From a virus (lineage: Duplodnaviria; Caudoviricetes): DNA of 64,000 bases. Position numbers and translations under genes: made by a program. The stretch covers positions 977-64,976 of IMG/VR virus record IMGVR_UViG_3300025316_000016, one strand, 5' to 3'. Each line of letters opens with the position of its first letter. Positions within the stretch are counted from its first letter, which is position 1. The notes below the pieces were generated by a model. It had not been told where the DNA came from. It ran no database searches and saw nothing but the letters and a program-made list of their open reading frames with translations. This document shows, piece after piece, positions 1,943-64,000 of the stretch.

Positions 1943-3568
1943 TTACAATACACGTTTAATGGTATCAAATGCACTATACTCTTCTGGTATAGGCTGATCA
2001 ACTGGTGGATCTAATTGATTCATCATTTGCTGTTGTGTTACAGCATTTGTCACTTCAACAGGAACATCAAAACCTTCTTTCTTTTCCTTTGCGATTTCTG
2101 CTGTCATATCTTCGATCTGAACATCTGTTAATCTTAATACTTTACGTTGAATCCAAGATTTAGAATAGTATGTTCCAGTATAAGGATCGACTTGACTCAA
2201 TAACGACAATCTTTCTTTCATCAATTCAGCATCTTTCATTTCAGCAAAGTTATTATCTCTGATGAAATCGTAGTATATATGTTCTTTAAAGTCTTCCCAC
2301 TCTTCGGCTGTGCATATGCCTTTCAACACACACTGTGCGCGTAATGCTTGGTTAAACATGTCAGAGAATTTGTTTCTAAGTCTATCAATAAACTTAGCGA
2401 ATTTCAGCTCATCTCTTGTCACTTCTGATACACGACCCAGTGCAAAACCTTGGTTTGGTTCTAAACGTGAAACAGGAACACTTAATGCTTTGTATAGTTT
2501 TCTCTCGAAGTATTTAACATCTTCAAGTTCACCCAAGTTTTGTCCACCTGGTAGTGTAGTAATCTCGGTACCTTTACCACCTTCTCTACGTGGTAACCAG
2601 AAATCTTCCATCATTGACATGAATTTACGATCATCTCGTACTTCACCTGTCGCGGCATCATACACAAGCTTATTCTTGTACTTTGCCATGATGTCACGTA
2701 GGTACTGTTCAGCTTTTAGCTTAGGTAGATTACCCACATCGATATAGAAAATTCTACGTTCTGGTGCTCTAGAAATACGATAGATTACCGTAGCATCTTC
2801 AATCATTCTCAATTGGTTTAGAGGTTTAATTGCTTTGTGTAGATACGACAACACAACTGAACGTCTAGAATCCATTAGTCCAGACACAACTGAAATAATA
2901 GAGTCTGTTGTAATTCTAACACCGGCAGGACCGAAGCTTGATGAACCGCCACCAGCAACTTTATCATTGAATATGTAATACTCATTGATAACATTCATTA
3001 CATCAACTCCAGTACGATCATCCTTCTTCTTTTTAATTTCTCGTACTTTCCTTAGTTTTCTTGGGTCGATATAACGTAATGCTTTAATACCTTCTGTTGG
3101 ATTTTCTTTGTCTATAATGATGTGATAGTACATTTTCCCATCAACATAGTATCTACGAAAGATATCCTGTGCCATATTTTTGTAGTTCAGTAGTTTTAAT
3201 ACTGTAGCAAATTCTTCCCGAATTGCTTTCTTAATCTTATCTGGCTGTTTTAAATCGTCCAGTACGATATCTGTAATTCTTCCATCGTCATCTATACTAA
3301 TTGCTTCATTGACGATATCATCTAGTGCTGATTCAATTTCAGGTTGCATAGCCATTTCACGATAACGAGAAATAAGCTCTACCTCATTTTTGGCAGTACC
3401 ATCCATATCAACATACACACCCATGTGTGCGTTTGATGTGATCGTAATGGCCCCATCTTCGTTGGTTGGCGGGCTAAAGCTTGGCTGTGTCTTTTGGTCT
3501 TCCTCATGCTTTTCACGAGAAAACGTGAACCCAAATAAACTAAATTTTGTCGCACCTTGTGTTGACAT
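1943..3568 (-). CDS. gp20: Portal vertex protein
   Basis: SYLHKAIKPLNQLRMIEDATVIYRISRAPERRIFYIDVGNLPK and EDFWLPRREGGKGTEITTLPGG. Confidence 0.99.
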   Translation of the reverse strand: MSTQGATKFSLFGFTFSREKHEEDQKTQPSFSPPTNEDGAITITSNAHMGVYVDMDGTAKNEVELISRYREMAMQPEIESALDDIVNEAISIDDDGRITDIVLDDLKQPDKIKKAIREEFATVLKLLNYKNMAQDIFRRYYVDGKMYYHIIIDKENPTEGIKALRYIDPRKLRKVREIKKKKDDRTGVDVMNVINEYYIFNDKVAGGGSSSFGPAGVRITTDSIISVVSGLMDSRRSVVLSYLHKAIKPLNQLRMIEDATVIYRISRAPERRIFYIDVGNLPKLKAEQYLRDIMAKYKNKLVYDAATGEVRDDRKFMSMMEDFWLPRREGGKGTEITTLPGGQNLGELEDVKYFERKLYKALSVPVSRLEPNQGFALGRVSEVTRDELKFAKFIDRLRNKFSDMFNQALRAQCVLKGICTAEEWEDFKEHIYYDFIRDNNFAEMKDAELMKERLSLLSQVDPYTGTYYSKSWIQRKVLRLTDVQIEDMTAEIAKEKKEGFDVPVEVTNAVTQQQMMNQLDPPVDQPIPEEYSAFDTIKRVL

Positions 3569-4185
3569 TATATATTTCCTTTCATTTTACAGTTATCGAA
3601 ATGCCATCTTTTAGCATTGCCTCTATTGGTACTAATGTTACAGTATGGACATTCTATTAATATCTTCGCAGCATCACTTATATTTAGTAATGATTTTTCT
3701 GTGTGATAATTTGTAATGCCATTGTTCCAAGAAGACGTTCCCTTTCTGTTTTGTCCCATCAATATCTTTGATTCGTCAGAATGTGTTTTCCCAAGATTTT
3801 TACCCATAGAAGATGATCTGATCTTTTCTATACTTTCTCTAGTGTGGGTCGGATAATATCCAAATGTACCCTCTCCACCCAACGTCATATTATATCCATT
3901 AGAATTTTTGGACTTGATATATGAATTATTCTCAACAATAAAGTAATTTTCCATTACATTTTTACAATAGTTTAGTTCTAGTGATTGATATAAAATAGAC
4001 CAATAAAAGTTGCTCCACCCATATTTTCTTATAGACCTATGAAAATATGTTTTATATCCTGGTTGACCAACACAATTGGCTTCTATCTTATGCCTACCTT
4101 TTCTTCTTTCAAAATCCTTAGCAAAACCAATATAGCATTTACCGGTGACTTTGTTTGTTGCTTTGTATATAGTATATATAATCAT
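3568..4185 (-). mobile_element. Free-standing GIY-YIG homing endonuclease (Seg-like) with NUMOD3-type repeats and C-terminal zinc finger
   Basis: True start at 4185 (AGGAG SD). Motifs TIYKATNKVTGKCYIG, GYNMTLGGEG, HSDESKILM and C-terminal CPYC...RWHFDNCK. Confidence 0.9.
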
Positions 4186-4241
4186 GCTGTATCTCCTATA
4201 AGATATAGAGTTAGTGGATGCTGATACATCTCGACTAACAC
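4186..4241 (-). ncRNA. Structured leader motif, copy 1 (before GIY-YIG gene)
   Basis: GTTAGT-CGA-GATG-loop-CATC-C-ACTAAC, then a second hairpin covering AGGAG, then CAGC-ATG. Covaries with the copies at 60711 and 63968. Confidence 0.65.
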
Positions 4242-4245
4242 TTTC

Positions 4246-4275
4246 AAATAAAGGAGAGAACCGAAGTCCTCTCCT
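4246..4275 (-). terminator. Rho-independent terminator after gp19
   Basis: GGAGAGGAC-TTCG-GTTCTCTCC-TTTATTT with a C(UUCG)G tetraloop. Confidence 0.85.
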
Positions 4276-4282
4276 ATGATGT

Positions 4283-4828
4283 TTATGATGTTGTTGCTGC
4301 ATCCCAGTATTGGTATGCAAAAGTAACGCCATATTCTTCTATCTTATCGTTGTCGCCCCAATCTAGATCAATAGGTGCGATATCAACAGGAAACATACCA
4401 ATAAAGTTGTATGTTTTTAGTATATCACCTTGTTTGCCATACTGAGTAACCATTGCATCAACAGTATATGCAGATGCGCTGCTACTACCACCGGCAGCTC
4501 TAATATTGCTCACATGGGTATTAATACCATTTGACCAAGATTCTAGTGCATTTCTTATAGTGAAATCTTCATCATTAACGATCTGTAATGACCAGTCAGC
4601 GAAAGTTCTGTTACCAGCAAATTTCATTTCACGACCAAAATAATACATTGGAATTGAACCCAAAGATGATCCTGGTAGTTGAGCACCTTTTGCCATGAAT
4701 GTAGTTTTCTGTCCTGCAACAGAACCATTAGCGACAAAAGTTGGGAATGTTAGTGTTACCGAAAATAGATTGGGACGAGCACCGTCACCAATCAGATTCG
4801 AACGAAATTCATTTACATTAAAAGACAT
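4283..4828 (-). CDS. gp19: Tail tube protein
   Basis: GARPNLFSV, FGREMKFAGNRTFADW, IDLDWGDNDKIEEYGVTFAYQYW. Confidence 0.97.
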   Translation of the reverse strand: MSFNVNEFRSNLIGDGARPNLFSVTLTFPTFVANGSVAGQKTTFMAKGAQLPGSSLGSIPMYYFGREMKFAGNRTFADWSLQIVNDEDFTIRNALESWSNGINTHVSNIRAAGGSSSASAYTVDAMVTQYGKQGDILKTYNFIGMFPVDIAPIDLDWGDNDKIEEYGVTFAYQYWDAATTS

Positions 4829-4843
4829 TTGTATTTCTCCTTA

Positions 4844-20459: not shown

Positions 20460-21494
20460 TTAAGATTTATAACACATGATGTTTGCTAAATATCTTGGTG
20501 CCCAGTTTGTTTGGCTTGAACCCCCATCTGTACCACCTGAGTGGGTATGGTTTGCTGAGGCCCCGCCTATTGCTGCATATCCTACTTGGGTTGTTTGGGT
20601 ATATGGGCCTTGTGCCACCCCTAGTGGACCTCCTGTGGTTTGTCCGTTTAGAGGCGCACTATATTGATGGGTGTGCCCAGAATCATAATGGACGTGGTCT
20701 GCAGATACATTACCAGTAGTAAACCCATGTGTATGGTAAGGGACAACATTCATTACTGTTGGTGAGTTAGACCCTGCACCATATCCACCTGCCCCTGATA
20801 CTATATAAAGCATAAAATCATTTAGGTCTGTGCGCTGAACCCAACCTGTTGGCGCTGCTGCTTGGTAGAAGTTTGTTACTGTCCCTGCGGGCATTTGTGC
20901 CCAAGTGCCATTTAAGTTTGATGCTGTAGTAGCATTACCTACTGTTAAGCTTGCGGCTGTGCCTGTTATGTTCGTACCAACAAGGGTGGTAGGTGTGCCT
21001 AAGTTTGGAGTTACTAATGTGGGGCTTGTACTTAATACATTATTTCCAGACCCAGTAGATGTAGTTACACCAGTACCACCAGAACCAACCGCTAATGTAG
21101 CAGATAACCCAGCGGCATTAGTTGCACTTGTCGCGTTTGTCGCGTTTGTCGCGTTTGTCGCGTTTGTCGCGTTTGTTGCATTAGTAACAGCTGTGGCACC
21201 TATTGCTGCAACTATTTGAGCGGCGGAAGCGGCTGACATTGCACCAGTGCCGTTACCATAAGCAACACCTGTGAGTGTTCCTGCATTACCAGTACCACCA
21301 GAACCAACCGCTAATGTAGCAGATAAACCGGCGGCAGTACCACTAGTATTTTGATTCCATGTTGGAACAGTTCCAGTTAATCCTGAATATGGTAATGTGC
21401 AATTAGTTAATGTTCCACTTGTAGGAGTTCCTAATACTGGAGTTACTAATGTTAGACTGGCACCTAATACTGACGAACCTACTTTAGTTGTCAT
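20460..21494 (-). CDS. Short tail fibre protein
   Basis: ATN repeats; collar-like MPAGTV..FYQAAAPTGW; HTH/HVH metal-binding tip repeats. Confidence 0.85.
   Translation of the reverse strand: MTTKVGSSVLGASLTLVTPVLGTPTSGTLTNCTLPYSGLTGTVPTWNQNTSGTAAGLSATLAVGSGGTGNAGTLTGVAYGNGTGAMSAASAAQIVAAIGATAVTNATNATNATNATNATNATSATNAAGLSATLAVGSGGTGVTTSTGSGNNVLSTSPTLVTPNLGTPTTLVGTNITGTAASLTVGNATTASNLNGTWAQMPAGTVTNFYQAAAPTGWVQRTDLNDFMLYIVSGAGGYGAGSNSPTVMNVVPYHTHGFTTGNVSADHVHYDSGHTHQYSAPLNGQTTGGPLGVAQGPYTQTTQVGYAAIGGASANHTHSGGTDGGSSQTNWAPRYLANIMCYKS
21130..21174. repeat. Perfect 9-bp tandem repeat (GTCGCGTTT x5)
   Basis: Directly visible; encodes an Asn-Ala-Thr run in the fibre. Confidence 0.95.
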
Positions 21495-24413
21495 TTATAT
21501 GTTTCCTTTTAAAATATCGATTTCTTTTGACAAATCTTTAATGGCTTCGATCAGTAATCCAACCATGTTGCCGTAATCTACTGAATATATACCGTCAGCA
21601 TTTTCAAACACCACTTCTGGTAATACCGCGAGTACTTCTTGTGCAATCACACCAGTATATAGCTTAGTTGAATCTTCCTTATCGTTTCTGGTAAAAGTAA
21701 CACCTCTAATAGATTTGACCTTCTCTAATGAGTTAGGTATAACATTAACATTCTCTTTTAATCTAGCATCAGAATATGCTGTGATGTTGCCTGATGCTAC
21801 GATAGTACCAGCAACGGCATTTGATACACCTACACCAAGAGCATTCATCTGAAAGCTATTAGCTGTGTTTGTTGCATTAGCAGTACCTGCTGTCGTGGCA
21901 GTACCTGCTGTCGTGGCAGTACCTGCTGCTGCTGCTGTACCAGAGCTTATAGCCGAAGATACTTGGGCAGCAGTCTGATAACCTGTGGGATTTGTACTAT
22001 TATAAGGAGTGAATCCTAATCCTGTAGTTACTTGCGAACTAGTTATAGTACCAGCATATGTACCGGTGATATTTGCTGCTGTACCAGAGCTGATAGCCGA
22101 AGATACTTGTGCAGCTGTTTGATAACCAGTTGGGTTGGTGCTATTATAAGGAGTGAATCCTAATCCTGTAGTTACTTGCGAACTAGTTATAGTACCAGCA
22201 TATGTACCACTAATATTTGCTGCTGTACCAGAGCTGATAGCCGAAGATACTTGGGCAGCAGTCTGATAACCTGTGGGATTTGTACTATTATAAGGAGTGA
22301 ATCCTAATCCTGTAGTTACTTGTGAACTAGTTATAGTACCAGCATATGTTCCGGTGATATTAGTTGCAGTACCAGAAATATTGTGTGTATATGTTGCTGC
22401 TGTGTTAGCAAGTGCTCCATACACAAACCCAGTAGTAGCAATCATTGTATTACTGGTAGTTAGTGCTGGTGTTACTGCTAATGGCACACCCGTCAATTGT
22501 GGTGATATTTTTGGTGCAGCAACAGAATACAAGCCATCAATGGCTAATTGTATAGTATTAGCTGTGCTTGATATTCCAGAGTTAATTGTATAACCAATGT
22601 TATTGGCATAATATGGATTGATTACATATCCATCAACCTCGATCATTACAGTATCATTAACGGCAGCACCAGTTAATAGTGTTACTGATGTGTTACTTGT
22701 TTCTGTATAGTCAGAAGGATATTGTCGCACACCATCAACATAAACTCTTAATTGACTAGAACCAATAAGGTAAGATGGTGCTGTGAATAGTGTTTGTCCA
22801 GCAGTAGCTGTATAGTTCAGTCTTGATGAGTTGATTGTTGTTCCTGGTACTGCACCACTGCCACCACCCGTGCCACCAGCTGCCCAATAATAACTTCCAA
22901 CACCACCAGTTGTCAACACATACCCAGCTGTTGTTCCTGCTGGTAGAATGTTAGTTAATGCACCACCAGCTGATTGTGCACCAGTACCACCATATGCTAA
23001 TGGTAAAGCGTTTACCAGTGATAATGCATTAAACGCTGGAGATGCAGTTGTTCTAATATCTTGTGCAGTATTGATAGTAATTGTATTACCAGAACCAACT
23101 GCTGTGACACCATTACCACTAGTTAGATTAACTATTCCTGCTGTTGGTGTAGCAGAACCGGTGGTGCCAACAAATGAGTTTGCCGAAGTATTTGCTCTTG
23201 CATATGCAGAAGTTGCATAAACGTTCAGTGTGCTTACATTAGAATTTAATGTGCTTATGCTATTATTTAATGCGATGGTTACTGATGAAGATGCTAATGT
23301 GTTAGATGTCATCAGTGGAGAATATACCCCAGAATTCACATCCAGAACATCCCAATATGTGTTTATTTCATTCCATCTTATTGATGCGTTTGCACCAGAA
23401 ATACCTCTACTAACATTAATATACGCAGGAGTTGCTGTTGTCACACTAGAGTTTAATGTGAACGTATTTGCGTTATATACAGTTGCCCCGTTAATAACAA
23501 AATTACCACCAACAGACAATTGTTGATTTGTTATTATATTACCAAAGTATGCGGTGGCTGAATTTGCATCAACTAGTGACGATACTATTATTTTTGGTGC
23601 TGTTACAACAGTATTGGCTTGTAGTGTATTAGTATAACTAGTACCAGTAACACTTGATGTTGCTGTGTTTGTGCTGGTGTTAGCTTGTAATATGTTTGTA
23701 AAGCTAGTACCAGTAACACTTGATGTTGCTGTGTTTGTGCTGGTGTTAGCTTGTAATACGTTGGTATAACTAGTACCAGTAACACTTGAGGTTGCAGTAT
23801 TTGTGCTAGTGTTAGCTTGCAACACGTTCGTGAAGCTGGTGCCTGAAACTGCTGATGTTACTGTATAGATGTTATCGTTTGCTCGTAGTGAATTAGTAAA
23901 TGTTGTATTCACTACAGATAAGTCATTATTTATTTGTGCATCGGAAAGTATCGATAGATTATTAGATGTTGTTCTAGCACCAACAACCACATTATTAGAA
24001 ACATTAAGAGCATCACCAGAAGCCAATACTGACACAGTTCCATAATGGATAGTATTATTAGCAACGATAAGACCATTACCTGGACCATTAGCCAATAGTA
24101 ATCCACCAATATTAGCAGTTCCGTATGTAACTAGACTTAGTCCGGTATTGGCAAGATATGTTTGGCCACCTGTCCATAGGTTATAGGTAACGTTTGCAGA
24201 ACCGGCAACTAATTGACCACCAACAGTAGCACCATATGCAACAGAAAGTCCGGTACCAACACCGTTTAGGATAAGTATTCCAGAATCTTTGGTGTATGGC
24301 AATCCAGATGCACCACCACCCAAATTATTAATTTCTTGTGCTAGTGCGTTTGTATTGACTACCCAATCACCAAACGTGTTGTTATATGTTAATTGACTTA
24401 CTGTATTTGCCAT
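21495..24413 (-). CDS. Long tail fibre protein with C-terminal S74 chaperone
   Basis: N/T/S/A-rich repeats; AYSDARLKENV...GVIAQEV...GLLIEAIK. Confidence 0.9.
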   Translation of the reverse strand: MANTVSQLTYNNTFGDWVVNTNALAQEINNLGGGASGLPYTKDSGILILNGVGTGLSVAYGATVGGQLVAGSANVTYNLWTGGQTYLANTGLSLVTYGTANIGGLLLANGPGNGLIVANNTIHYGTVSVLASGDALNVSNNVVVGARTTSNNLSILSDAQINNDLSVVNTTFTNSLRANDNIYTVTSAVSGTSFTNVLQANTSTNTATSSVTGTSYTNVLQANTSTNTATSSVTGTSFTNILQANTSTNTATSSVTGTSYTNTLQANTVVTAPKIIVSSLVDANSATAYFGNIITNQQLSVGGNFVINGATVYNANTFTLNSSVTTATPAYINVSRGISGANASIRWNEINTYWDVLDVNSGVYSPLMTSNTLASSSVTIALNNSISTLNSNVSTLNVYATSAYARANTSANSFVGTTGSATPTAGIVNLTSGNGVTAVGSGNTITINTAQDIRTTASPAFNALSLVNALPLAYGGTGAQSAGGALTNILPAGTTAGYVLTTGGVGSYYWAAGGTGGGSGAVPGTTINSSRLNYTATAGQTLFTAPSYLIGSSQLRVYVDGVRQYPSDYTETSNTSVTLLTGAAVNDTVMIEVDGYVINPYYANNIGYTINSGISSTANTIQLAIDGLYSVAAPKISPQLTGVPLAVTPALTTSNTMIATTGFVYGALANTAATYTHNISGTATNITGTYAGTITSSQVTTGLGFTPYNSTNPTGYQTAAQVSSAISSGTAANISGTYAGTITSSQVTTGLGFTPYNSTNPTGYQTAAQVSSAISSGTAANITGTYAGTITSSQVTTGLGFTPYNSTNPTGYQTAAQVSSAISSGTAAAAGTATTAGTATTAGTANATNTANSFQMNALGVGVSNAVAGTIVASGNITAYSDARLKENVNVIPNSLEKVKSIRGVTFTRNDKEDSTKLYTGVIAQEVLAVLPEVVFENADGIYSVDYGNMVGLLIEAIKDLSKEIDILKGNI
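21931..22361. repeat. Three near-identical 144-bp (48-aa) tandem repeats
   Basis: GTACCAGAGC at 21937, 22081 and 22225; unit NITGTYAGTITSSQVTTGLGFTPYNSTNPTGYQTAAQVSSAISSGTAA. Confidence 0.93.
23615..23850. repeat. 60-bp (20-aa) tandem repeats, three to four copies
   Basis: Unit LQANTSTNTATSSVTGTS(Y/F)TN(V/I). Confidence 0.9.
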
Positions 24414-43144: not shown

Positions 43145-43765
43145 TTATTTCAACAAAGTGGTTAGTTGATTTTCCATATCTTTGGCGTATATCTCATTCA
43201 ATATATTAACCGATCGTTTATTTTCATTAATCAGTACTTCATGATCAAATATTGTTTGTGAATATGTTGTTATTGTCGTGGTTACTGTAGACATATCTTC
43301 CAATGTGGTTGTCCACTGCTCGTGTTGCGGTGTGGCTAGATATGTAGCATAGTCTAGCTGATAATCATTAGTAGACGTTGTTTGTGATACTGGATCATAT
43401 GATGATATGGTTTTGTAGTATCCATTTATTGTGCTCTGGGTGTATTGTAACACAGTCTGGTTCAATAGCAGTGCTGCGGCAGAATATTTAGCATTTATGT
43501 ATAAATTGAAGTTGGTTTCTGATAGCGCCAAATCCCATTGTGGGTCCATGATATTGTTACCATACAAGAACAACCAATATCTATATGGATCTCCGTAGTA
43601 TTTGTTTGCTATAATTTCCGGAGTATCCCCGTCCTGCATATCATACTTGTAGAATAACGATCCGTTGTTCATTAGTGATGGTATTATGTCTGTCCTAACC
43701 ATAAGATTAGTGACATAATTGCCATTGTCATCTAGAATTTTTGGAAATGATCTGAAGAATTTCAT
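43145..43765 (-). CDS. gp53: Baseplate wedge protein
   Basis: FFRSFPKI, DGDTPEIIANKYYGDPYRYW..L..NNIMDP..D, E...NENKR. Confidence 0.92.
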   Translation of the reverse strand: MKFFRSFPKILDDNGNYVTNLMVRTDIIPSLMNNGSLFYKYDMQDGDTPEIIANKYYGDPYRYWLFLYGNNIMDPQWDLALSETNFNLYINAKYSAAALLLNQTVLQYTQSTINGYYKTISSYDPVSQTTSTNDYQLDYATYLATPQHEQWTTTLEDMSTVTTTITTYSQTIFDHEVLINENKRSVNILNEIYAKDMENQLTTLLK

Positions 43766-44841
43766 TATCTGATAGCCCCACTGGTCAATCTTCCTCTGTT
43801 AACTATATGTATCTCACTAAAATTCATAGTTAATCGTGTTTGGATCGGTGCTCCGCCTGGATGTGCTGACCAACCGCCTGGTGCATAATCTACAGTAACA
43901 TTCTCTAATACACAATCACCAACTTTAAATAATCTGGTATTTTCATCGGCACTAGTACCTCCACCAATTGATCCTAAATTTACTCCTGGTATCAAACTAT
44001 TGCCCGCTTTCTTCAACATGGCACTAAATCCACTAAGATCGGTATTCTTGGCCATCATCATTTTTATGTTGAATATAGACGGTGGTGTGAAATACATACC
44101 AGAACCAGTAGACAGTGTTGGTGAAGATGCATAAACAAATGTGTTGCATATGGCGGAAATTTGATCAGACTCACTCTGTGATTTTGCGGTCATTATAAAT
44201 TCTAATTGGAATTTTCTGAAACCATTACCGCGATATAGCATCTGTATTTGTGGGTTGAATGCAAATCCTTGTGCTTTCAGCATAATATCACCGGTGTCTT
44301 TGTCAAAACCAAGCTTGTCAGAAATTCCCCTAAAAGCATAATCTACTAAAAATGGGTCTGTGGTTGCCATAGATTTCAATCCATTAAACCTACCTTCTCC
44401 AGACCCAACAGCTGCATCGATCGCACCACTAACAAGTTCGGTACCCTTTGCCAACATTTTAAACCCCATAGGAGTGGCTATGTCATCATAAAAGTTGTCA
44501 TATGAAATGTTCAGTGTATCTGGCATGTATAGGCAGACCTTGGTAGCACTAAACTTCTTACTTTTTTCCATCTCCTGCTGGAATGATGCTCCCTCTGTTA
44601 CCATAGCATTAGGACTTTTTAGATAATTTAATATAGCACTACCATCAGATAGCGTGACTGGTGTTATATTAGATATTGTGAACTCAATGAAGTGCATCCT
44701 TGATGGATCATTTGCTAGATCGTCCGGATATTGGTAGCTGGTCATTCCAGTCTTTTTCTTGAACAATGATCCTAGTGGACCACTCAATACGTTGGTGATA
44801 CTACTGGTAGAAATACCACCGATTTGTGTGAATATAGCCAT
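43765..44841 (-). CDS. gp48: Baseplate tail tube cap
   Basis: YQYPDDL, LYMPD, NPQIQMLY.G..FR.F, CVL.NV.VDY.P.G, P...RLTM.F.E. Confidence 0.88.
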   Translation of the reverse strand: MAIFTQIGGISTSSITNVLSGPLGSLFKKKTGMTSYQYPDDLANDPSRMHFIEFTISNITPVTLSDGSAILNYLKSPNAMVTEGASFQQEMEKSKKFSATKVCLYMPDTLNISYDNFYDDIATPMGFKMLAKGTELVSGAIDAAVGSGEGRFNGLKSMATTDPFLVDYAFRGISDKLGFDKDTGDIMLKAQGFAFNPQIQMLYRGNGFRKFQLEFIMTAKSQSESDQISAICNTFVYASSPTLSTGSGMYFTPPSIFNIKMMMAKNTDLSGFSAMLKKAGNSLIPGVNLGSIGGGTSADENTRLFKVGDCVLENVTVDYAPGGWSAHPGGAPIQTRLTMNFSEIHIVNRGRLTSGAIR

Positions 44842-44852
44842 TGACCATCTCG

Positions 44853-44880
44853 TATAAATAATTGATTACAAGTATTTATA
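44853..44880. promoter_or_regulatory. Face-to-face pair of late promoters
   Basis: TATAAATA (+, 44853-44860), 12 bp, then TATTTATA (-, 44873-44880), at the strand switch. Confidence 0.85.
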
Positions 44881-44925: not shown

Positions 44926-45573
44926 ATGTACCACTGTAAAATTTGTGGTGCAGACATGCATAGCAACGTAAAACTGTCTATACACATCAGGAAAGAACAT
45001 GATATGTCCACAAAAATGTATTATGACACATATGTAAAGAAATGTGGTGATGAATTTTGTGTTGTATGTGGAAAATGTGCAATTTATAAGAGCTTTGTTT
45101 TCGGGTATTCTAAAACTTGCTGTCGATCATGTTCCGCTAAAAATTTCAGGAACGAATTAAAGAACGACCCAATTAGAAATCAAATATTTGTTGATAAAGT
45201 TAGTGACAATATGGTAAAGATTTGGGAAGATCGCGCCATATCAGGTGAAATGGAAGTTATTATCGAAAAGGCAACCAAGACTATTAGAGAAAACAATAAA
45301 ACTTTAACTGTCCAAGAGAGAAAAGAGAGGTTTGGTTGGTTAAACAAACTATCTGGAGAAGAGAGGGAAACAAAAATAAAAGAGATGATTAAACCACTTC
45401 AAGATTTTTATGAAAATATTTCAGAAGAAGAATTGGTCGCTTTGGTTAAGAAAAGAACAGCAACTTTTATGGAAAGATATGGAAATACCTATCCGGAATA
45501 TTTGAGTGAGATATCCGAAGATGGGAATATGGGATTATGTCGTATATTTGGTATTCAGTATGTTCCATTATGA
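44926..45573 (+). CDS. Zinc-finger protein resembling homing-endonuclease DNA-binding regions; no nuclease domain recognised
   Basis: C2H2 CKIC...HIRKEH; CVVC...CCRSC; KRTATFMERYG; ATGA overlap with gp4. Confidence 0.6.
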   Translation: MYHCKICGADMHSNVKLSIHIRKEHDMSTKMYYDTYVKKCGDEFCVVCGKCAIYKSFVFGYSKTCCRSCSAKNFRNELKNDPIRNQIFVDKVSDNMVKIWEDRAISGEMEVIIEKATKTIRENNKTLTVQERKERFGWLNKLSGEERETKIKEMIKPLQDFYENISEEELVALVKKRTATFMERYGNTYPEYLSEISEDGNMGLCRIFGIQYVPL

Positions 45574-46019
45574 GTAGACCAAAACCACATATGTGGTACC
45601 CAAGAAATCCTAATAAATACATGGGAAACCCTAATAATATTTGTGTTAGATCTTCGTGGGAAACCAAGGTATGTGTGTGGTTAGATACATCAATAAACAT
45701 ATTAGAATGGTCATCTGAAGAAATAGTGATACCTTATATATCACCTGTAGATGGTAAATATCACAGATACTTTCCAGACTTCTTTGTACGAGTAAAGCAA
45801 CAAGATGGTACAGTAAAATCAATGATACTTGAAGTCAAGCCTCACTCACAAATCATAGAACCAAAAATTAAAAAGAGGATAACCAAGGCATATATAAATG
45901 AGGTAGCTACCTATGGAGTTAATCAAGCAAAGTGGAGAGCCGCAATAGAATACTGTCTAGATAGGGGGTGGGAGTTTAGAACCCTCGATGAATATGATTT
46001 AGGAATTAAACAGAGATAA
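45570..46019 (+). CDS. gp4: Head completion nuclease
   Basis: PRNPNKYMGNP, RSSWE, WSSEEIVIPYISPVDGKYHRYFPDF, EVKP, NQAKW; start at 45570. Confidence 0.95.
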   Translation: MSRPKPHMWYPRNPNKYMGNPNNICVRSSWETKVCVWLDTSINILEWSSEEIVIPYISPVDGKYHRYFPDFFVRVKQQDGTVKSMILEVKPHSQIIEPKIKKRITKAYINEVATYGVNQAKWRAAIEYCLDRGWEFRTLDEYDLGIKQR

Positions 46020-58277: not shown

Positions 58278-59612
58278 CTATTTAAATTTCCAATCGTTGC
58301 AATAATCAAATTTGTGTAACTGCTTTAATCTATCTTCACATGAGTCACCGATATCTGTACGATATGCAGGATCATTACCTAATTTTACCTGTTTCACTAC
58401 TTTATAAGCAGCATCTTTTGCCTGTGTTATCGTGTCGCCAATGCCCATACACACACATATGTAAGTACCAGCAGTGCCCCACTCAGGGTAGTTTTCTACA
58501 ACTTCATCATCAACCATCTTAATAGTAGATGATAGCTTGATTTCACACGGTGATACCATAGAAATGTCTTTCACATCATCAGTGATTACCGGATAATCTA
58601 GATAGTCTTCGATAGGTTTCTTTGCAAATGGGAAGTCTGAACACGCCATGACAACACCAAGAGCAGTCTCGCCGCCAATAATTTCAAATGTGTCCTTCCC
58701 ATTGATTAGATCGACCATCCATTGAGCAGGATCACCAACGATTAATGATTGTTGAATATTGTGTATAGGGTAGCCTGGACGTTGTGTAAATTCCATTGGC
58801 CAAGGAGTACCATCGTTTTCATCTACTATAACACTAATATCAACGAAACCAACATATTTCAATTCGTGCAATAGCTTTTCTAGGGGTTTCAGCATTATAT
58901 CAGCTAGTTTAGAATCTTTAGTGTATCTTAGCGCCGTCCCCATTTCTCCAGTGCTAACACCAAGATCCCCGTTCATCAGTTTCTTGTGCTCGAAGTTCTC
59001 ACAGAACACGCTATTGAATCCATTAGGACCAAACATACCCATAACAGCAAGTTCAGTACCTTTCTTGAATTCTTGAAGAATGAACTTCGTGATACCTGCT
59101 TTCTTACCAACTTTCTTCATACGAGTAAGAAACCCGATCATGTCTGCTGGATCTTTAGCTAGATACGTTAAAGATTTATCTTCTACAGATCCACAAGGTT
59201 TGCAGCAGTATCTATTTGGATTTGCTTTGACGAAAGCTATTGCTTGGTCATAATTGGAAAATTCGGTTGATGGTATTACTTTGTTGCCACAATCTTTTAT
59301 AGCGTTTTGACCATACATTCTATCTACTTCTAATCGTGCAGATCTTTTATCTGGTCCAAAAACTGGCAACCCTTTTTTGCGAAGTTCTAGAACTTCATCC
59401 ATGAAATCTACATTATCTGCCACGAATATCAAATCGCAGTGTTGTGCATATGATTTAGCTTGTTGCCAGTTGTCGAACTTGTCAACAAGTCCTTGGCCAA
59501 TGGGTTCGGCGATAGGTCCTACTGTGATTAATTTAACTGTGTGTCCAGCGGCGATGCAGTCTAGGCACCAGTGCACACTTAGTGCATATGGATCGATACT
59601 CAAGATATTCAA
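58278..59612 (-). CDS. Divergent PurD (GAR synthetase)-like ATP-grasp ligase
   Basis: VFGP...ARLEVDR, FILQEF..G.E, FEHKKL.NGDLG..TGEMG, MEFTQRPGYP, YRTDIG; TTG start with GGAG SD; no GSGGREHA motif. Confidence 0.8.
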   Translation of the reverse strand: MNILSIDPYALSVHWCLDCIAAGHTVKLITVGPIAEPIGQGLVDKFDNWQQAKSYAQHCDLIFVADNVDFMDEVLELRKKGLPVFGPDKRSARLEVDRMYGQNAIKDCGNKVIPSTEFSNYDQAIAFVKANPNRYCCKPCGSVEDKSLTYLAKDPADMIGFLTRMKKVGKKAGITKFILQEFKKGTELAVMGMFGPNGFNSVFCENFEHKKLMNGDLGVSTGEMGTALRYTKDSKLADIMLKPLEKLLHELKYVGFVDISVIVDENDGTPWPMEFTQRPGYPIHNIQQSLIVGDPAQWMVDLINGKDTFEIIGGETALGVVMACSDFPFAKKPIEDYLDYPVITDDVKDISMVSPCEIKLSSTIKMVDDEVVENYPEWGTAGTYICVCMGIGDTITQAKDAAYKVVKQVKLGNDPAYRTDIGDSCEDRLKQLHKFDYCNDWKFK

Positions 59613-60288: not shown

Positions 60289-60446
60289 CAGTAATTCTCA
60301 CTAAGTTCAAAAGGTTTCTTTGATTTTTGTTTATTGGGTTTGCGGACAGATCTAGGTTCATATCCAGCAAGTTTTTCTTTATTTCTACGAATACCACAGT
60401 CATCTTCTCGACTTCTTTTTGGTAATACATAATCATCTATATTCAT
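60285..60446 (-). CDS. Small basic hypothetical protein
   Basis: Likely start at 60446; overlaps the next gene by 4 bp. Confidence 0.5.
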   Translation of the reverse strand: MNIDDYVLPKRSREDDCGIRRNKEKLAGYEPRSVRKPNKQKSKKPFELSENYW

Positions 60447-60453
60447 TTCGTTC

Positions 60454-60669
60454 TCAAAAATCCCATACAATTTCTAACTTCTTTATGTGTTGATAGTCTT
60501 CCAGCGCATCATTGATATTGCTTTTGTTCGGTGGAATGAACACATAATCAATATCACCTTCTTTTGCTGCAAGCTTTTCGTTTAGGTATTCTATTGCCTC
60601 TAATGCTGTACTAAAGGTTTTCATGTCCTTGTTATTAGCTAGGACGGGTCTGCACACGTATTTTATCAT
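60454..60669 (-). CDS. Hypothetical protein
   Basis: Likely start at 60669 after AGAG. Confidence 0.55.
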   Translation of the reverse strand: MIKYVCRPVLANNKDMKTFSTALEAIEYLNEKLAAKEGDIDYVFIPPNKSNINDALEDYQHIKKLEIVWDF

Positions 60670-60699
60670 GTATATTCTCTTTATCAAATACTAATTTGT

Positions 60700-60767
60700 T
60701 ATAAATAGTTATAGGTCGCGATACTAGACATATCCACCTATTCTAATAACTTACTAGGAGTATCAGC
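60700..60767 (+). ncRNA. Late promoter plus structured leader motif, copy 2
   Basis: TATAAATA (60700-60707), then ATAGGT-CGC-GATA-loop-TATC-C-ACCTAT, an SD-covering hairpin and CAGC-ATG. Confidence 0.7.
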
Positions 60768-61376
60768 ATGAGTATATATGTACCAACATATCTTTATGTC
60801 AAACATCATTCAGTTACAGGTCTAAAATACTTCGGTATGACCACCAGAACAGATCCAATTAAATATCTAGGGTCTGGTAAATACTGGAGATCTCACACCA
60901 AGAAACATGGAGTAACGTTCGTTGAAACCTTGTGGTTAAAATTATTCGATACCCAAGAATTACTAACAGATTTCGCATTATTATTTTCAGAACATTGGGA
61001 CATAGCAAATTCCAATGACTGGGCTAATCTTATACCAGAAAACGGTGTGGGTGGTGTGCGAGGGCTTGTACATTCGGACGAATCTAAATTAAAGATGTCA
61101 CTATCTAAGCTCGGCATACCAACAAAACCACATTCAGCAGAAACCAAATTAAAAATGTCTATCTCACACAAAGGTAAAATTCATTCACCGGAACATGTGG
61201 AAAAGATTGCAGCAACCAAAAGAGGCATACCTCAACCAATTGAACGAAATTTACTACAATCTATCGCCACGAAAGGAATACCAAAACCAATATTGATGTG
61301 TCCGCATTGTAATAAAGTTGGTGGTATTCCGGGTATATATAGATGGCACTTTAATAACTGTAAGTTAAGGGTATGA
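60768..61376 (+). mobile_element. Free-standing GIY-YIG-like endonuclease with NUMOD3-type repeats, antisense to its neighbours
   Basis: TYLYVKHHSVTGLKYFG...YLGSGKYW..H.KKHG; HSDESKLKMS and HSAETKLKMS; CPHC...RWHFNNCK. Confidence 0.85.
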
Positions 61377-61553
61377 TTCGCGCCCCCACTCTACATATTC
61401 TCTCGTTTTTGGATTAAAATAATTTCCGTTTGTAGGATCATAATAATGGACAGTGCCGAATATTCTAATCGGCCCAATAAACCCTTCTCTCTTAGTATAA
61501 CCATCTAAATCCCCACATGTATCTTTTGCTATCGGTTTGAACTGAAGTTTCAT
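61365..61553 (-). CDS. Hypothetical protein
   Basis: Y..REG..GP....G.V.YYDP..G.Y..P.T pattern of small phage proteins. Confidence 0.6.
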   Translation of the reverse strand: MKLQFKPIAKDTCGDLDGYTKREGFIGPIRIFGTVHYYDPTNGNYFNPKTREYVEWGRESYP

Positions 61554-61560
61554 GTGTTCC

Positions 61561-62637
61561 TTATTTGATAGTTGTCAACAAAACTACATCACAATTAATC
61601 CTCCCATTCAAAGGAGACGCGACAGATGTGATGTTAGCCATAATCTTTTTAAGAATCGTTTTCTTACCCTTCACAACATCAGGTATAACTTCCAGTGGCT
61701 TCCTTACTATTTTATTTATGGATAATGTTTCGTCATAATTCTCAATGGTAGTACCTTTGACACTCAAACCAGCCCCATCCTTAGCAACATATACACCTAG
61801 CTTTCTGGTTTTAGTATTGAACACCCATAGTGACTGACACCCAATAATACTCTCTGGTTTGACCGACACAATCTTATATTCAGGATCATCTTTCTTGAAT
61901 ACAAGTTTCAGTATCTTCTTGGATAACGGAACCACTTTCTTCTTGCGTGGTATTTTAGCGACCTTTGCATTAGAAGTAAACTTATTACAATCTGCCAACA
62001 CTAATTGCAGAAACTGATTAAGCTTCTTTATTTCGGTCTTGTTGTAGTTCGAGTACCCCTCAACGAGCTGTTCATCTTTACCAGCAACAACTTCTTTAAC
62101 CTCAATACTTAATGGTTTAAAATGGTCGATGATTTGTTTTGTATGAACAGCCTTACACACTTGCGCTGATAGAAACTCATACACTTTTAATGTGTAATCA
62201 CGTATATCAATAGCATCCTCGATGGTGTTGATGATCTCTGTACAATGGTTGTATATCTTATCCTGGAGAGATACCTTTGGTTTAGTGGGTATCGTGTCGG
62301 GTTTATCCACTACTGGAGCAATATAATTGAACAGCTCATTGATCCTAACATCGATCCAAGAGATTTGTTCAAGTGTTGGTTGGTATCCACGAGAGATCAT
62401 TCTAACAACATACCCAACATTTTTGACTTCCCATTCTGAAACTGATGATATTTTACTAATCATCTTTGGGTCGTATTTGTTGAGTTTCATGTGTGTCACA
62501 AGATACACACGAGAATCTTTGTAGTCCTTCGTGCGAGAATACCAACTTAGACACTCAGTGAAATTGTATGTGTTATCGAATGACGGCTCTTTACCATATA
62601 CAAGATCATCAATGTTTACACGTTTCTTTTCAGCCAT
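61561..62637 (-). CDS. Conserved T4-like hypothetical protein
   Basis: DEQLVEGYS; SVKPESIIG...LWVFNTKTRKLGVY...GLSVKGTTI..YD...S..K.VRKP...NGRIN. Confidence 0.8.
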   Translation of the reverse strand: MAEKKRVNIDDLVYGKEPSFDNTYNFTECLSWYSRTKDYKDSRVYLVTHMKLNKYDPKMISKISSVSEWEVKNVGYVVRMISRGYQPTLEQISWIDVRINELFNYIAPVVDKPDTIPTKPKVSLQDKIYNHCTEIINTIEDAIDIRDYTLKVYEFLSAQVCKAVHTKQIIDHFKPLSIEVKEVVAGKDEQLVEGYSNYNKTEIKKLNQFLQLVLADCNKFTSNAKVAKIPRKKKVVPLSKKILKLVFKKDDPEYKIVSVKPESIIGCQSLWVFNTKTRKLGVYVAKDGAGLSVKGTTIENYDETLSINKIVRKPLEVIPDVVKGKKTILKKIMANITSVASPLNGRINCDVVLLTTIK

Positions 62638-62638
62638 G

Positions 62639-63019
62639 TCAATATACAATTTCCATAGAAGTTACTGAATCAACTCTAAATGATCTGTAACCATCGTTCT
62701 CTACATCGAATACCACGACCACATTATCATTAATCGCTTTTCTTTCTTGTGTTTCAGAAATTAGCTCGATATCGACACCAGATGGATCAACTTCTTTTTG
62801 TGGTAGGTATTGGTCTAATAATGTACCTTTCAATACGCGAACATCGCCGTTAACTTTCGTGAATGTAATATTAGCAACGTTATTATGTAGTATATCAATA
62901 ATCTCATCTCTGTTCATAGTTTTCTCTTTCTTACCCCAAATTAAGTCCCAATTGGCGTTGAATTTGTCTGTATCCACCGCCCTAGCATTACTACCTTTAC
63001 CACCAGCCCACGCTGCCAT
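62639..63019 (-). CDS. WYL_2/Sm-like SH3 beta-barrel protein with N-terminal extension
   Basis: ITFTKVNGDVRVLKGTL...VFDVENDGYRSFRVDSV; possible internal start at 62917. Confidence 0.75.
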   Translation of the reverse strand: MAAWAGGKGSNARAVDTDKFNANWDLIWGKKEKTMNRDEIIDILHNNVANITFTKVNGDVRVLKGTLLDQYLPQKEVDPSGVDIELISETQERKAINDNVVVVFDVENDGYRSFRVDSVTSMEIVY

Positions 63020-63027
63020 AATTTCTC

Positions 63028-63225
63028 CTATGCTACTGAATTAGTTAATGGTGATTTGATATTAACCACCACATCGTTTTCATACAATTCATCGACAATC
63101 AACAATTTTGATTTAGTAATACAATGATTGCAAATGACCGCCCCAGTTTCTGCTATAATCAATATCGTGCCTTGCTTCTTTACAGCTGCACAGAAGCTGC
63201 ATTTTACCTCAGAATCCATGATCAA
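63028..63225 (-). CDS. Stand-alone ClpX-type C4 zinc-finger protein
   Basis: CSFC......LIIAETGAVICNHCI matches the ClpX N-terminal zinc-binding pattern. Confidence 0.7.
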   Translation of the reverse strand: MIMDSEVKCSFCAAVKKQGTILIIAETGAVICNHCITKSKLLIVDELYENDVVVNIKSPLTNSVA

Positions 63226-63874
63226 AATTTACCTCTGCATATGTATCAACTTCCACAACGGGTTCAACTGTCATCTTAGCATACAAGTCAAGGAAACCTG
63301 CTTTGGTTTCATCATCAAAACGATTAGTACATAGAGTGATAGCTTTCATCTTATCATTAAAGATGTTGTATGACTTAGCAATATGTACAAGTCTACGAGT
63401 ACTTATAATCTCGTCAATAGCACCTTCCATATATGTCTTTCTGATAACATCTGCCCACTGAACCAATTCATCGATGAATGATTTGTCGGTAATCAATGGT
63501 GATAGAATCTTCTTCTCTGTCTTAGTATCAGGAAATTCTTGTTCAATAGTAATAACGAAACGTTCCAAGAATGCTGAGTCAAGTATCTGTGATAGATAGT
63601 TTCCATCTTCAGATCCCTTACCCTTTGTGTTAGCGGTAGCGATAATGTTGAATCCAGCTTTAGGATGAATCATTTCACCAGTCTTCTTGTTATAGTACGA
63701 AGCACCTTCAAGGATACCCTGCAAACACATCAACTTAGCACCATTACCACGATCAACCTCATCGCAATTATGTGTTACTACACCATTATATGATACAAAT
63801 GTGTGGTTTTTTCTGACAGTTAATGTTCTGACTGTACCAAGACCCATCTTTGTAATTTTTTTTATTTGTTTCAT
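63209..63874 (-). CDS. Split-intein IntC fused to the C-terminal half of a CobS/MoxR-like AAA+ ATPase
   Basis: 36-aa IntC ending HTFVSYNGVVTHN, then C-DEVD (Walker B), CLQGILEG, FNIIATANTKGKG, AFLERF, ISTRRLVHI. Confidence 0.9.
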   Translation of the reverse strand: MKQIKKITKMGLGTVRTLTVRKNHTFVSYNGVVTHNCDEVDRGNGAKLMCLQGILEGASYYNKKTGEMIHPKAGFNIIATANTKGKGSEDGNYLSQILDSAFLERFVITIEQEFPDTKTEKKILSPLITDKSFIDELVQWADVIRKTYMEGAIDEIISTRRLVHIAKSYNIFNDKMKAITLCTNRFDDETKAGFLDLYAKMTVEPVVEVDTYAEVNFDHGF

Positions 63875-63931: not shown

Positions 63932-63957
63932 CTTTTATGTGCAATTTCTTATATATG

Positions 63958-64000
63958 CTAAATAGGTATAGGTCACGATACCGCAAATATCTACCTATTC
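63958..64000 (+). ncRNA. Late-like promoter plus structured leader motif, copy 3 (cut by the window edge)
   Basis: CTAAATA, then ATAGGT-CAC-GATA-loop-TATC-T-ACCTAT-TC. Confidence 0.65.

What the first reader, a model, noticed from the sequence alone, without database searches (positions are those of the whole stretch)
60700..61376. Mobile unit of late promoter, covarying two-hairpin leader and GIY-YIG gene with RWHFxNCK finger
Seen: three dispersed copies of one structure. The outer stem is ATAGGT/ACCTAT (twice) or GTTAGT/ACTAAC. A 3x1 internal loop (CGC/C, CAC/T, CGA/C) follows. The inner stem is GATA/TATC or GATG/CATC with a variable 6-7 nt loop. In the two complete copies a second stem pairs with the AGGAG SD and the leader ends CAGC-ATG. 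Both stems show compensatory changes. The two downstream proteins have divergent nuclease domains but share a C-terminal CPxC-x11-RWHF(D/N)NCK zinc finger. Inference: a family of selfish elements with a conserved cis RNA (or DNA hairpin), perhaps bound by the shared finger for autoregulation, or acting as an end signal or RNA cofactor for mobility. I cannot match it to a named RNA family.
Basis: partly seen in the sequence, partly recalled or inferred. Interest (0 to 1): 0.85.

Follow-up and report, generated by a model that had tools for sequence, protein, structure and literature searches.

The report
Antisense-folding control module of phage homing endonucleases
A short two-hairpin control module sits in front of many different selfish nuclease genes in lake-water T4-like phages, and its pattern of mismatches suggests that it folds on the strand opposite the gene, perhaps as a small antisense RNA that keeps the nuclease in check.

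Summary
The window holds three copies of a bulged hairpin (60711-60741 +, 63968-63998 +, 4210-4239 -). The two complete copies are followed by a second stem that overlaps the SD, then CAGC-ATG and a Seg-like homing endonuclease gene.

The same module is widespread in uncultured T4-like phages. All 70 loci found with a hairpin-blind pattern carry it. Single phage records hold up to 9 copies. It precedes at least 94 distinct proteins of several nuclease families.

Both stems covary strongly. The shared zinc finger is not the partner: 12 of 94 proteins have it.

New point: non-Watson-Crick pairs are almost all A.C on the gene strand, which means G.U on the opposite strand (102 against 3 cells). 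The opposite strand folds better in 78 of 78 modules. It also carries a NATAAATA late-promoter core at a fixed distance before the first helix and a U-rich tail after the second.

Best reading (about 0.5): a roughly 70-nt cis-antisense RNA that covers the SD and AUG. No RNA data exist. Dassa et al. 2009 probably saw related hairpins. There is no Rfam match.

The parts
60700..60707 (+). Sense late promoter TATAAATA of copy 1, 3 nt before the hairpin. Read on the other strand, it is the U-rich tail after the antisense hairpin.
   Evidence: In this window, 11 of 12 TATAAATA sites are followed by an ORF with an SD.
60711..60741 (+). Helix 1 of copy 1: 6-bp outer stem, bulged C, G:C pair, bulged C, 4-bp inner stem, 7-nt loop.
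   Evidence: R1 scores 52.8 bits. Covariation.
60743..60766 (+). Helix 2 of copy 1. The 5' arm is 60743-60751 (one extra base) and the 3' arm is 60759-60766. The 3' arm includes the AG of the SD GGAG (60757-60760) and the CAG of CAGC-ATG.
   Evidence: Row 1 of alignment A6. Pair counts.
60773..60779 (-). Place of the antisense late-promoter core (codons 2-4 of the gene). This copy has the variant TATATAT instead of TATTTAT, and its activity is unknown.
60768..61376 (+). SegD-like homing endonuclease gene (202 aa) with NUMOD3 and a C-terminal CPHC-x10-RWHFNNC finger.
   Evidence: About 30% identity to KVP40 SegD and the Acj61 Seg-like gene.
60682..61525 (.). Segment absent from a related phage contig, where 121 other letters stand in its place. 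It holds the promoter, both helices, the endonuclease gene and most of the small minus-strand ORF 61365-61553.
   Evidence: table 5: run X7, one contig of 5344 nt.
4210..4239 (-). Helix 1 of copy 2 (GTTAGT/ACTAAC outer stem). It follows the gp19 terminator and has no late promoter upstream.
   Evidence: R1 scores 46.6 bits.
4187..4208 (-). Helix 2 of copy 2 (CTATATCT / AGATACAG), compensated at three positions relative to copy 1. The SD is at 4196-4193 and the ATG at 4185-4183.
3568..4185 (-). GIY-YIG-type endonuclease gene (205 aa) between gp19 (tail tube) and gp20 (portal). It has NUMOD3 and a CPYC-x10-RWHFDNC finger, and its stop overlaps the gp20 start.
63957..63998 (+). Copy 3: GCTAAATA followed by helix 1 (63968-63998). 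The rest is lost at the contig end.
   Evidence: R1 scores 33.6 bits with filters off and 41.8 bits as a truncated hit. This copy was not in the model.

Best explanation
The three copies belong to a portable control module of about 80 bp. It travels with free-standing homing endonuclease genes (HEGs) in a group of uncultured aquatic T4-like phages.

On the gene strand the module reads:
- a late promoter (NATAAATA);
- a bulged hairpin (helix 1);
- the box UCUAAYACU, which pairs with AGNNUCAG (helix 2, overlapping the SD);
- the AUG;
- then TATTTAT.

Shown here: both helices are kept by compensatory changes. Their non-Watson-Crick pairs are almost only A.C on the gene strand, which is G.U on the opposite strand. 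So selection for folding acts on the opposite strand.

Inferred: that strand carries its own late-promoter core (the reverse complement of TATTTAT), 6 nt before helix 2, and a U-rich tail after helix 1. The module therefore most likely encodes a cis-antisense RNA of about 65-75 nt with two hairpins. This RNA would be fully complementary to the SD and start codon of the endonuclease mRNA.

Its likely role is to hold down synthesis of the nuclease, by occluding the ribosome site, by duplex cleavage and/or by convergent-promoter interference. Because the target stretch is nearly the same in many cassettes, it could possibly act in trans on other cassettes. The logic resembles IS10 RNA-OUT/RNA-IN or hok/sok. 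The sense promoter drives the endonuclease mRNA late in infection.
For: Reality and spread:
- A hairpin-blind pattern found 74 stretches. All 70 new loci carry the hairpin (77 hits).
- A search of 12 long phage records with the hairpin model alone gave 36 hits in 10 records, up to 9 in one record. All 30 fetched sites show the full module.

Covariation:
- Helix 1: 11 of 11 pairs have double changes; score 0.968 against 0.29 shuffled and 0.09-0.18 slid. The rows were preselected for pairing.
- Both helices on a structure-blind MAFFT alignment of 49 antisense rows: 98.8% paired against 79.1% shuffled, and 13 of 19 pairs have double changes.
- RNAalifold predicts the same two hairpins.

Strand of folding:
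- Helix 1 in 66 distinct rows: 705 Watson-Crick, 13 A.C, 0 G.U on the gene strand.
- Helix 2 in 69 modules: 435 Watson-Crick, 115 A.C, 0 G.U. Three of the eight pairs were partly fixed by my pattern.
- Alignment A6: 102 antisense G.U cells against 3 antisense A.C cells, or 53 against 3 without the invariant pair.
- The antisense fold is more stable in 78 of 78 modules, mean -18.0 against -12.5 kcal/mol.

Promoter and terminator geometry:
- The antisense 8-mer is NATAAATA in 39 of 49 rows.
- TATWTAT lies exactly 5 nt from CAGC in 138 of 145 modules, while the start codon sits in at least four different registers. The constraint is therefore on nucleotides, not on codons.
- At least 5 U in the 9 nt after helix 1 in 66 of 78 modules on the antisense strand, against 3 of 78 on the gene strand.
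- Modules with a distant sense promoter have an A-tract (a U-tract on the antisense strand) directly at the stem.

Precedent: CfrI, an antisense RNA over an endonuclease gene in cyanophage S-PM2, and the NATAAATA late promoter of cyanomyoviruses (passages of PMC2984593).
Against: - No RNA evidence of any kind was available, so promoter and terminator activity are inferred from sequence alone.
- The two complete copies in this window carry TATATATA, not NATAAATA, at the antisense promoter place. In this window that variant precedes no structural gene. The variant occurs in 8 of 49 aligned rows.
- The putative terminator is not canonical. Its stem is bulged, and in the near-promoter class the U-rich tract starts a few bases after the stem. 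The simple terminator scan does not flag it.
- Both promoters are of the late type, so sense and antisense RNA would be made at the same time. The regulatory gain is not obvious.
- The sense-strand layout (late promoter just before the hairpin, SD partly inside helix 2) also fits published endonuclease control, and the two readings may both hold.
- Many rows are related, so cell counts overstate the number of independent events. By my own count from the rows printed (no call tallied it), about 19 independent A.C backgrounds stand against 0 G.U.
Confidence: 0.5

Rival explanations
1. A sense-strand 5' leader of the endonuclease mRNA. Helix 2 partly hides the SD, helix 1 stabilises or scaffolds the 5' end, and the late promoter pairs with codons 2-4 in read-through transcripts. 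Translation would then be confined to late transcripts, as in I-TevI, segB and Aeh1 mobE.
For: - The orientation relative to the gene is constant.
- The promoter lies 3-5 nt before helix 1 in 117 of 184 loosely found sites.
- The AG of GGAG lies in the 3' arm of helix 2.
- The promoter core and TATTTAT are complementary. RNAfold gives this long-range stem P > 0.5 in 25 of 58 leaders.
- The flanking pair N1-N12 is paired in 62 of 112 cases against 50.9 expected.
- The published model for T-even endonucleases and the GOS hairpins were read this way (passages of PMC2988022 and PMC2677866).
Against: - The gene strand has 0 G.U and many A.C in both helices, and it folds worse in 78 of 78 modules.
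- Predicted SD pairing is the same in read-through and late transcripts (0.70 against 0.71), so a late start frees nothing.
- Swapping partners barely changes the promoter-to-start duplex energy (-6.78 against -6.32; median rank 27 of 58).
- The promoter lies outside helices 1 and 2.
Confidence: 0.3
2. A DNA-level element. The hairpin or the conserved cassette would act in single-stranded DNA or as a homology patch for recombination, shuffling nuclease genes behind a common head. This would be a late-promoter counterpart of the PeSL cassettes.
For: - The same head (promoter to codon 4) precedes several unrelated nuclease families. Of 69 proteins, 32 match NUMOD3, 7 HNH, 7 DUF7487 and 5 GIY-YIG.
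- Records hold up to 9 copies.
- Other metagenome contigs match the leader alone.
- Pairing is almost purely Watson-Crick plus G.T on one strand.
- PeSL papers describe promoter plus stem-loop cassettes that mediate shuffling (abstracts of PMC2839356 and PMC4122927).
Against: - The conserved one-sided bulges, the invariant G.U and the promoter and U-tail geometry are features of a transcript, not of a homology patch.
- The stems differ widely between copies, which reduces homology.
- No recombinase is associated.
- Shuffling may be a consequence of the shared head rather than its function.
Confidence: 0.12
3. On the antisense strand helix 1 is only a terminator that stops antisense transcription running out of the endonuclease gene. 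No discrete small RNA has a function.
For: The antisense U-rich tail (66 of 78 modules) and A-tract variants such as CAAAAAAT directly before the hairpin.
Against: This does not explain helix 2 with its invariant G.U, the fixed 5-nt spacing of the promoter core to CAGC (138 of 145), or the conserved bulges.
Confidence: 0.08

Closest known systems
Hairpins in the 5' untranslated regions of free-standing endonuclease genes in 'fractured genes' of ocean metagenomes (Dassa et al. 2009, PMC2677866; passages read)
   Same: - Hairpins occur upstream of 15 of 16 endonuclease ORFs, and 10 include TATAAATA.
- Two conserved motifs are complementary in the stem.
- The endonuclease 3' ends overlap the next gene. 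Here overlaps of 1-68 nt are seen.
- The hosts are T4-like replication genes and split inteins. Here 2 of 72 flanking proteins match Intein_splicing, and others match gp32, gp59, gp44, UvsW and polB.
   Different: Their sequences are in figures and supplements that I could not see, so identity with this module is not proven. They read the hairpin as a sense-strand hairpin that hides the RBS. No covariance model, strand analysis or antisense reading is given in the passages I read.
RBS-sequestering hairpins with an internal late promoter (I-TevI, I-TevII, I-TevIII, T4 segB, Aeh1 mobE; review PMC2988022, passages)
   Same: Endonuclease genes, a late promoter directly upstream, and RNA structure at the ribosome site.
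   Different: There the promoter lies inside the inhibitory hairpin, so late transcripts cannot form it. Here the promoter lies outside both covarying helices, and predicted SD pairing does not change with the start site. The hairpin of seg43 in Aeromonas phage 25, mentioned in that review, is unrelated in sequence and is not found by the model.
CfrI antisense RNA of cyanophage S-PM2 (Millard et al. 2010, known to me only through the review PMC2984593)
   Same: An antisense RNA over the start of a free-standing endonuclease gene in a T4-like phage.
   Different: CfrI is about 225 nt, links the endonuclease gene to psbA, and was detected experimentally. The module here would give about 70 nt, is dispersed in many copies, and has no RNA evidence. 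I did not compare sequences.
IS10 RNA-OUT/RNA-IN and hok/sok (recalled from general knowledge; no call)
   Same: A mobile or selfish gene carries a short, structured, convergently transcribed antisense RNA over its own SD and start codon.
   Different: There is no homology. The promoters here would be phage late promoters, and the function is inferred, not shown.
PeSL cassettes of T4-type phages (PMC2839356 search listing; PMC4122927 abstract)
   Same: A dispersed composite of a promoter plus a stem-loop at the borders of variable genes in T4-like genomes.
   Different: A PeSL has an early promoter and a terminator stem-loop and is not tied to endonucleases. This module has late-promoter cores on both strands and two covarying helices.

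Membership tests
Any Rfam 15 family | Score at or above the family's gathering threshold. | tested here: not met
   0 matches in the whole window on both strands. With E up to 10 on 60600-60900 there were only two chance-level hits, a snoRNA and a lncRNA.
RBS-sequestering hairpin of T-even endonuclease genes (I-TevI / mobE type) | The SD lies inside a stable stem. | tested here: inconclusive
   Only the AG of GGAG is in helix 2. On the sense strand that helix has A.C mismatches. Predicted SD pairing probability is about 0.7.
RBS-sequestering hairpin of T-even endonuclease genes (I-TevI / mobE type) | The late promoter lies within the hairpin, so late transcripts lack one arm. | tested here: not met
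   The promoter is 3-5 nt or 8-40 nt upstream of helix 1. Only a weak A-U long-range stem includes it (25 of 58), with little covariation.
cis-antisense regulatory RNA (RNA-OUT / Sok / CfrI kind) | An own promoter on the strand opposite the target gene. | tested here: inconclusive
   The NATAAATA core is present in 39 of 49 aligned modules at a fixed distance. Activity was not tested, and the window's own copies have TATATATA.
cis-antisense regulatory RNA (RNA-OUT / Sok / CfrI kind) | A structure conserved on the antisense strand, with a terminator. | tested here: met
   98.8% standard pairs with covariation. G.U cells outnumber A.C cells 102 to 3. The U-rich tail is present in 66 of 78 modules. 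As a terminator it is non-canonical.
cis-antisense regulatory RNA (RNA-OUT / Sok / CfrI kind) | The RNA is detected and represses its target. | not testable with these tools
   No run on record as RNA holds the stretch.
PeSL | A sigma-70-type early promoter joined to a terminator stem-loop. | tested here: not met
   The promoter is TATAAATA/NATAAATA. There is no U tail on the sense strand (3 of 78). No sigma-70-like site lies at the module on the + strand.
GIY-YIG / Seg homing endonucleases (the two window proteins) | A GIY-YIG catalytic domain plus NUMOD-type DNA-binding modules. | tested here: inconclusive
   NUMOD3 is above the cut-off in both proteins. GIY-YIG scores 18.6 bits against a cut-off of 22.6 in the copy-2 protein and gives no hit in the copy-1 protein. 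The copy-1 protein is about 30% identical to annotated SegD/Seg-like genes over 95-100% of its length. Activity was not tested.

The most novel reading that the evidence does not exclude
Free-standing homing endonuclease genes of a large group of aquatic T4-like phages carry a built-in small antisense RNA gene. It has face-to-face late promoters and two covarying hairpins, and its terminator tail doubles as the sense promoter. The target stretch (SD to codon 4) is nearly identical across cassettes that encode unrelated nucleases. These RNAs could therefore act in trans as a shared copy-number or immunity system among selfish nuclease genes, within one genome and between co-infecting phages.
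Probability: 0.35. Interest if true: 0.85.

Novelty: new variant of a known kind. Interest (0 to 1): 0.68.

Why it matters
Homing endonuclease genes must be expressed without harming their phage. The known controls (late promoters, RBS hairpins, autorepression) come from a handful of T-even phages.

This module is one structured unit that can be modelled and is reused before dozens of unrelated nuclease genes, up to 9 times in one phage record. It gives a clean handle for finding such genes and their borders in metagenomes.

If the antisense reading holds, it would add an RNA-OUT-like layer to endonuclease biology. It would also show a compact design in which one 8-mer serves as a promoter on one strand and as a terminator tail on the other.

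The mismatch-asymmetry test (A.C against G.U) is also a simple general way to tell which strand of a covarying helix is the functional one.

Tried and rejected
**Finger binds hairpin.** Rejected. Only 12 of 94 downstream proteins have the strict finger.

**Module as a general trait of SegD-like genes.** Rejected. Of 45 loci found through the copy-1 protein, only 2 have a model hit at E <= 0.1.

**Long-range promoter-to-start stem as the main structure.** Weakly supported only.

**Weak model hit at 45082-45118.** It lies inside an ORF and was treated as noise.

**seg43 hairpin of Aeromonas phage 25.** Different sequence, and the model gives no hit in the first 50 kb of the record.

**Named phages.**
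- Megablast of 60400-61700 found nothing.
- blastn with words of 11 bases, using a whole module and then a leader, gave only AT-rich or short chance matches.
- I therefore found no cultured phage with the module. This covers GenBank phage records up to August 2025, at blastn sensitivity.

**RNA evidence.** No RNA holder was listed for window:56000-64000. The 17 runs listed are DNA runs.

**Simple terminator scan of 60300-61600.** Nothing flagged.

**Literature.** Searches found no paper that describes this module as an antisense RNA. The catalogue of more than 10,000 candidate viral RNAs (PMC10690425) mentions endonucleases only in its reference list.

**Rows left out.**
- Alignment A6 used 49 of 93 modules. 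I dropped 44 with long helix-2 loops to keep the MAFFT alignment clean.
- My pattern missed modules whose outer stem ends in CCTA, so window copy 1 was added by hand.
- The loose finder includes false hairpins (the 'none' class), so I use only its spacing figures.
- A1 rows were preselected for perfect pairing.

Full report
**1. What is in the window**

The window is almost the whole of a 64,976-nt contig of an uncultured T4-like myophage.
- It carries gp18, gp19 and gp20 at 1943-6589 on the minus strand.
- Its portal protein is at most about 53% identical to those of cyanomyoviruses.
- DNA runs that hold it are lake, freshwater and sediment metagenomes.

- Copy 1 follows a perfect TATAAATA (60700-60707).
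- Copy 3 follows GCTAAATA.
- Copy 2 follows the gp19 terminator and has no promoter.

Copies 1 and 2 run on into a second stem, an SD, CAGC-ATG and a gene.
- The copy-1 gene (60768-61376) is SegD-like: about 30% identical to KVP40 SegD and the Acj61 Seg-like gene.
- The copy-2 gene (4185-3568) lies between gp19 and gp20. It has a sub-threshold GIY-YIG hit.
- Both proteins have NUMOD3 and a C-terminal CPxC-x10-RWHFxNC finger.
- They are 26% identical.

**2. The module elsewhere**

An exact pattern for the ATAGGT-type hairpin found 8 viral contigs (6 distinct). All 8 have TATAAATA 3-5 nt upstream and an SD plus ATG downstream. The genes are SegD-like or HNH.

A second pattern named only TATAAATA and GGAGTATCAGCATG and left the space between them free.
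- It found 74 stretches and 53 distinct leaders. Each has the bulged hairpin, with very different stem sequences.
- A covariance model of helix 1 (R1) hits all 70 new loci, 77 hits in all.
- In the window, with filters off, R1 hits only the three copies.

By contrast, only 2 of 45 loci found through similarity to the copy-1 protein have the hairpin. The module therefore marks a lineage of cassettes, not a protein family.

A search of 12 long phage records with R1 alone gave 36 hits in 10 records.
- One complete 210-kb genome has 7, and two partial records have 9 each.
- All 30 fetched sites show the promoter or an A-tract, the hairpin, the leader and the conserved gene start.
- Of 26 of their proteins, 13 match the PHROG 'homing endonuclease' family 314, 5 match family 655, and others match HNH families.

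Of 69 downstream proteins from the earlier loci, 32 match NUMOD3, 7 HNH, 7 DUF7487 and 5 GIY-YIG.

Flanking genes are T4 core genes: gp23, gp20, gp32, gp59, gp44, UvsW, UvsY and polB. Two carry intein splicing domains.

A related phage contig in a sediment metagenome joins 60681 to 61526 with 121 other letters between. The promoter, both helices and the gene are therefore one insertion or replacement unit.

**3. Structure**

Helix 1 has a 6-bp outer stem, a bulged C, one R:Y pair, a bulged C and a 4-bp inner stem that starts G:C.
- On 54 preselected rows, all 11 pairs show double changes.

Helix 2 is 8 bp. The box CTAAYACT directly after helix 1 pairs with AGNNNCAG, which is the end of the SD plus the CAG of CAGC-ATG.
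- A fourth scan brought leaders with other arm pairs: ATGCT/AGCAT, ACACT/AGTGT, AATCT/AGATT, ATTCT/AGAAT, AAACT/AGTTT, GTTCT/AGAAC and TGTCT/AGACA. Window copy 2 has TATCT/AGATA.

**4. Which strand folds**

On the gene strand the non-Watson-Crick cells are almost only A.C or C.A, with no G.U in the direct counts on that strand.
- Helix 1: 13 against 0 in 66 distinct rows.
- Helix 2: 63 against 0 in 113 leaders, and 115 against 0 in 69 modules. In the latter count one pair was fixed by my pattern.
- My filters treated G.U and A.C alike.

On a MAFFT alignment of 49 antisense-strand rows:
- 98.8% of cells form standard pairs;
- 102 cells are G.U and 3 are A.C;
- one G.U is invariant;
- RNAalifold finds the same two hairpins.

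The antisense fold of the core is more stable in 78 of 78 modules, -18.0 against -12.5 kcal/mol. An RNA that worked on the gene strand should show the opposite pattern.

**5. Signals on the antisense strand**

Codons 2-4 of the genes read NNT-ATT-TAT in most cases.
- This gives M-x-I-Y in 77 of 94 proteins, also in HNH and other families.
- The conserved block is exactly TATTTAT, the reverse complement of the late-promoter core ATAAATA. The base next to it is free, as in the NATAAATA promoter of cyanomyoviruses.
- It lies 5 nt from CAGC in 138 of 145 modules, while the start codon is found in at least four registers. One whole leader class starts 9 nt upstream (MSSxxIY), and single cases are shifted by one base, with other residues as a result. 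The constraint is therefore on nucleotides.

On the antisense strand the order is: NATAAATA (39 of 49 rows), 6 nt, helix 2, one A, helix 1, then a U-rich tail (6.0 U in 10).
- Where the sense promoter is close, it supplies that tail.
- Where it is 16-40 nt away, an A-tract (a U-tract on the antisense strand) abuts the stem.

This is the layout of a small RNA gene of about 65-75 nt that is complementary to the SD and AUG.

**6. Limits**

- There is no RNA evidence.
- I found no cultured phage with the module.
- The window's own complete copies have TATATATA at the antisense promoter place. That variant is seen in 8 of 49 rows and is not used before structural genes here.
- The terminator is not canonical.
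- The sense reading is not excluded. The promoter core and TATTTAT can pair in read-through RNA (25 of 58 leaders), with slight excess pairing of flanking bases. However, partner swapping hardly matters, and SD pairing is the same with a late start.

**7. What is known**

- T-even endonuclease genes use late promoters and RBS hairpins (PMC2988022, passages).
- Dassa et al. 2009 reported hairpins with TATAAATA and two complementary motifs before endonuclease genes in ocean metagenomes (PMC2677866, passages). This is probably the same or a related element, read on the sense strand.
- CfrI shows that an antisense RNA over an endonuclease gene exists in a T4-like phage (PMC2984593, passages).
- There is no Rfam match, at the gathering threshold over the window or up to E = 10 on 60600-60900.

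**Verdict**

The feature is real and widespread. It is a new variant of known endonuclease control. The antisense-RNA reading is the best supported mechanism, at about even odds.

Noticed in passing
window 44853-44880: Two late-promoter 8-mers face each other 12 nt apart: TATAAATA on + at 44853 and on - at 44880. They lie between the divergent genes 43765-44841 (-) and 44926-45573 (+), so each promoter lies in the other's transcribed leader.
   Followed up: partly
window 44926-46019: A cysteine-rich 215-aa ORF with no Pfam hit is followed, and overlapped, by a TnsA-like endonuclease N-terminal domain protein (45537-46019, E = 1.3e-22). TnsA-like proteins also flank two modules in other phages.
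   Followed up: partly
window 58278-59612 (-): A phage-encoded protein similar to phosphoribosylamine-glycine ligase (PurD/GARS), with weak hits to the A, C and N domains.
   Followed up: partly
window 62639-63019 (-) and 63209-63874 (-): A WYL_2 (Sm-like SH3 fold) domain protein and a CbbQ/CobS-like AAA protein lie next to the third module copy.
   Followed up: partly
window 21100-24000 and 17100-17900: Long in-frame tandem repeats with periods of 9, 66, 144 and about 204-432 nt, and repeated 'ACCAGTACCACC' blocks. They lie in what look like large structural (fibre-like) genes on the minus strand.
   Followed up: no
window 61365-61553 (-): A small 62-aa ORF with a weak OCRE-domain hit. Most of it lies inside the segment that a related phage replaces by 121 other letters, so it may belong to the variable unit.
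   Followed up: no
L212/L213, L064, L234, L030 (gene starts): The TATTTAT block is kept at the same distance from CAGC, but the start codon is shifted by one base. The proteins then begin MSYL, MIYL or MIFI instead of M-x-I-Y.
   Followed up: yes
L005, L090, L073, L226: Some modules are followed by truncated ORFs of 87, 49 and 63 aa, or by a short ORF of under 30 aa (L226). These are possibly decaying endonuclease genes that keep an intact module.
   Followed up: no
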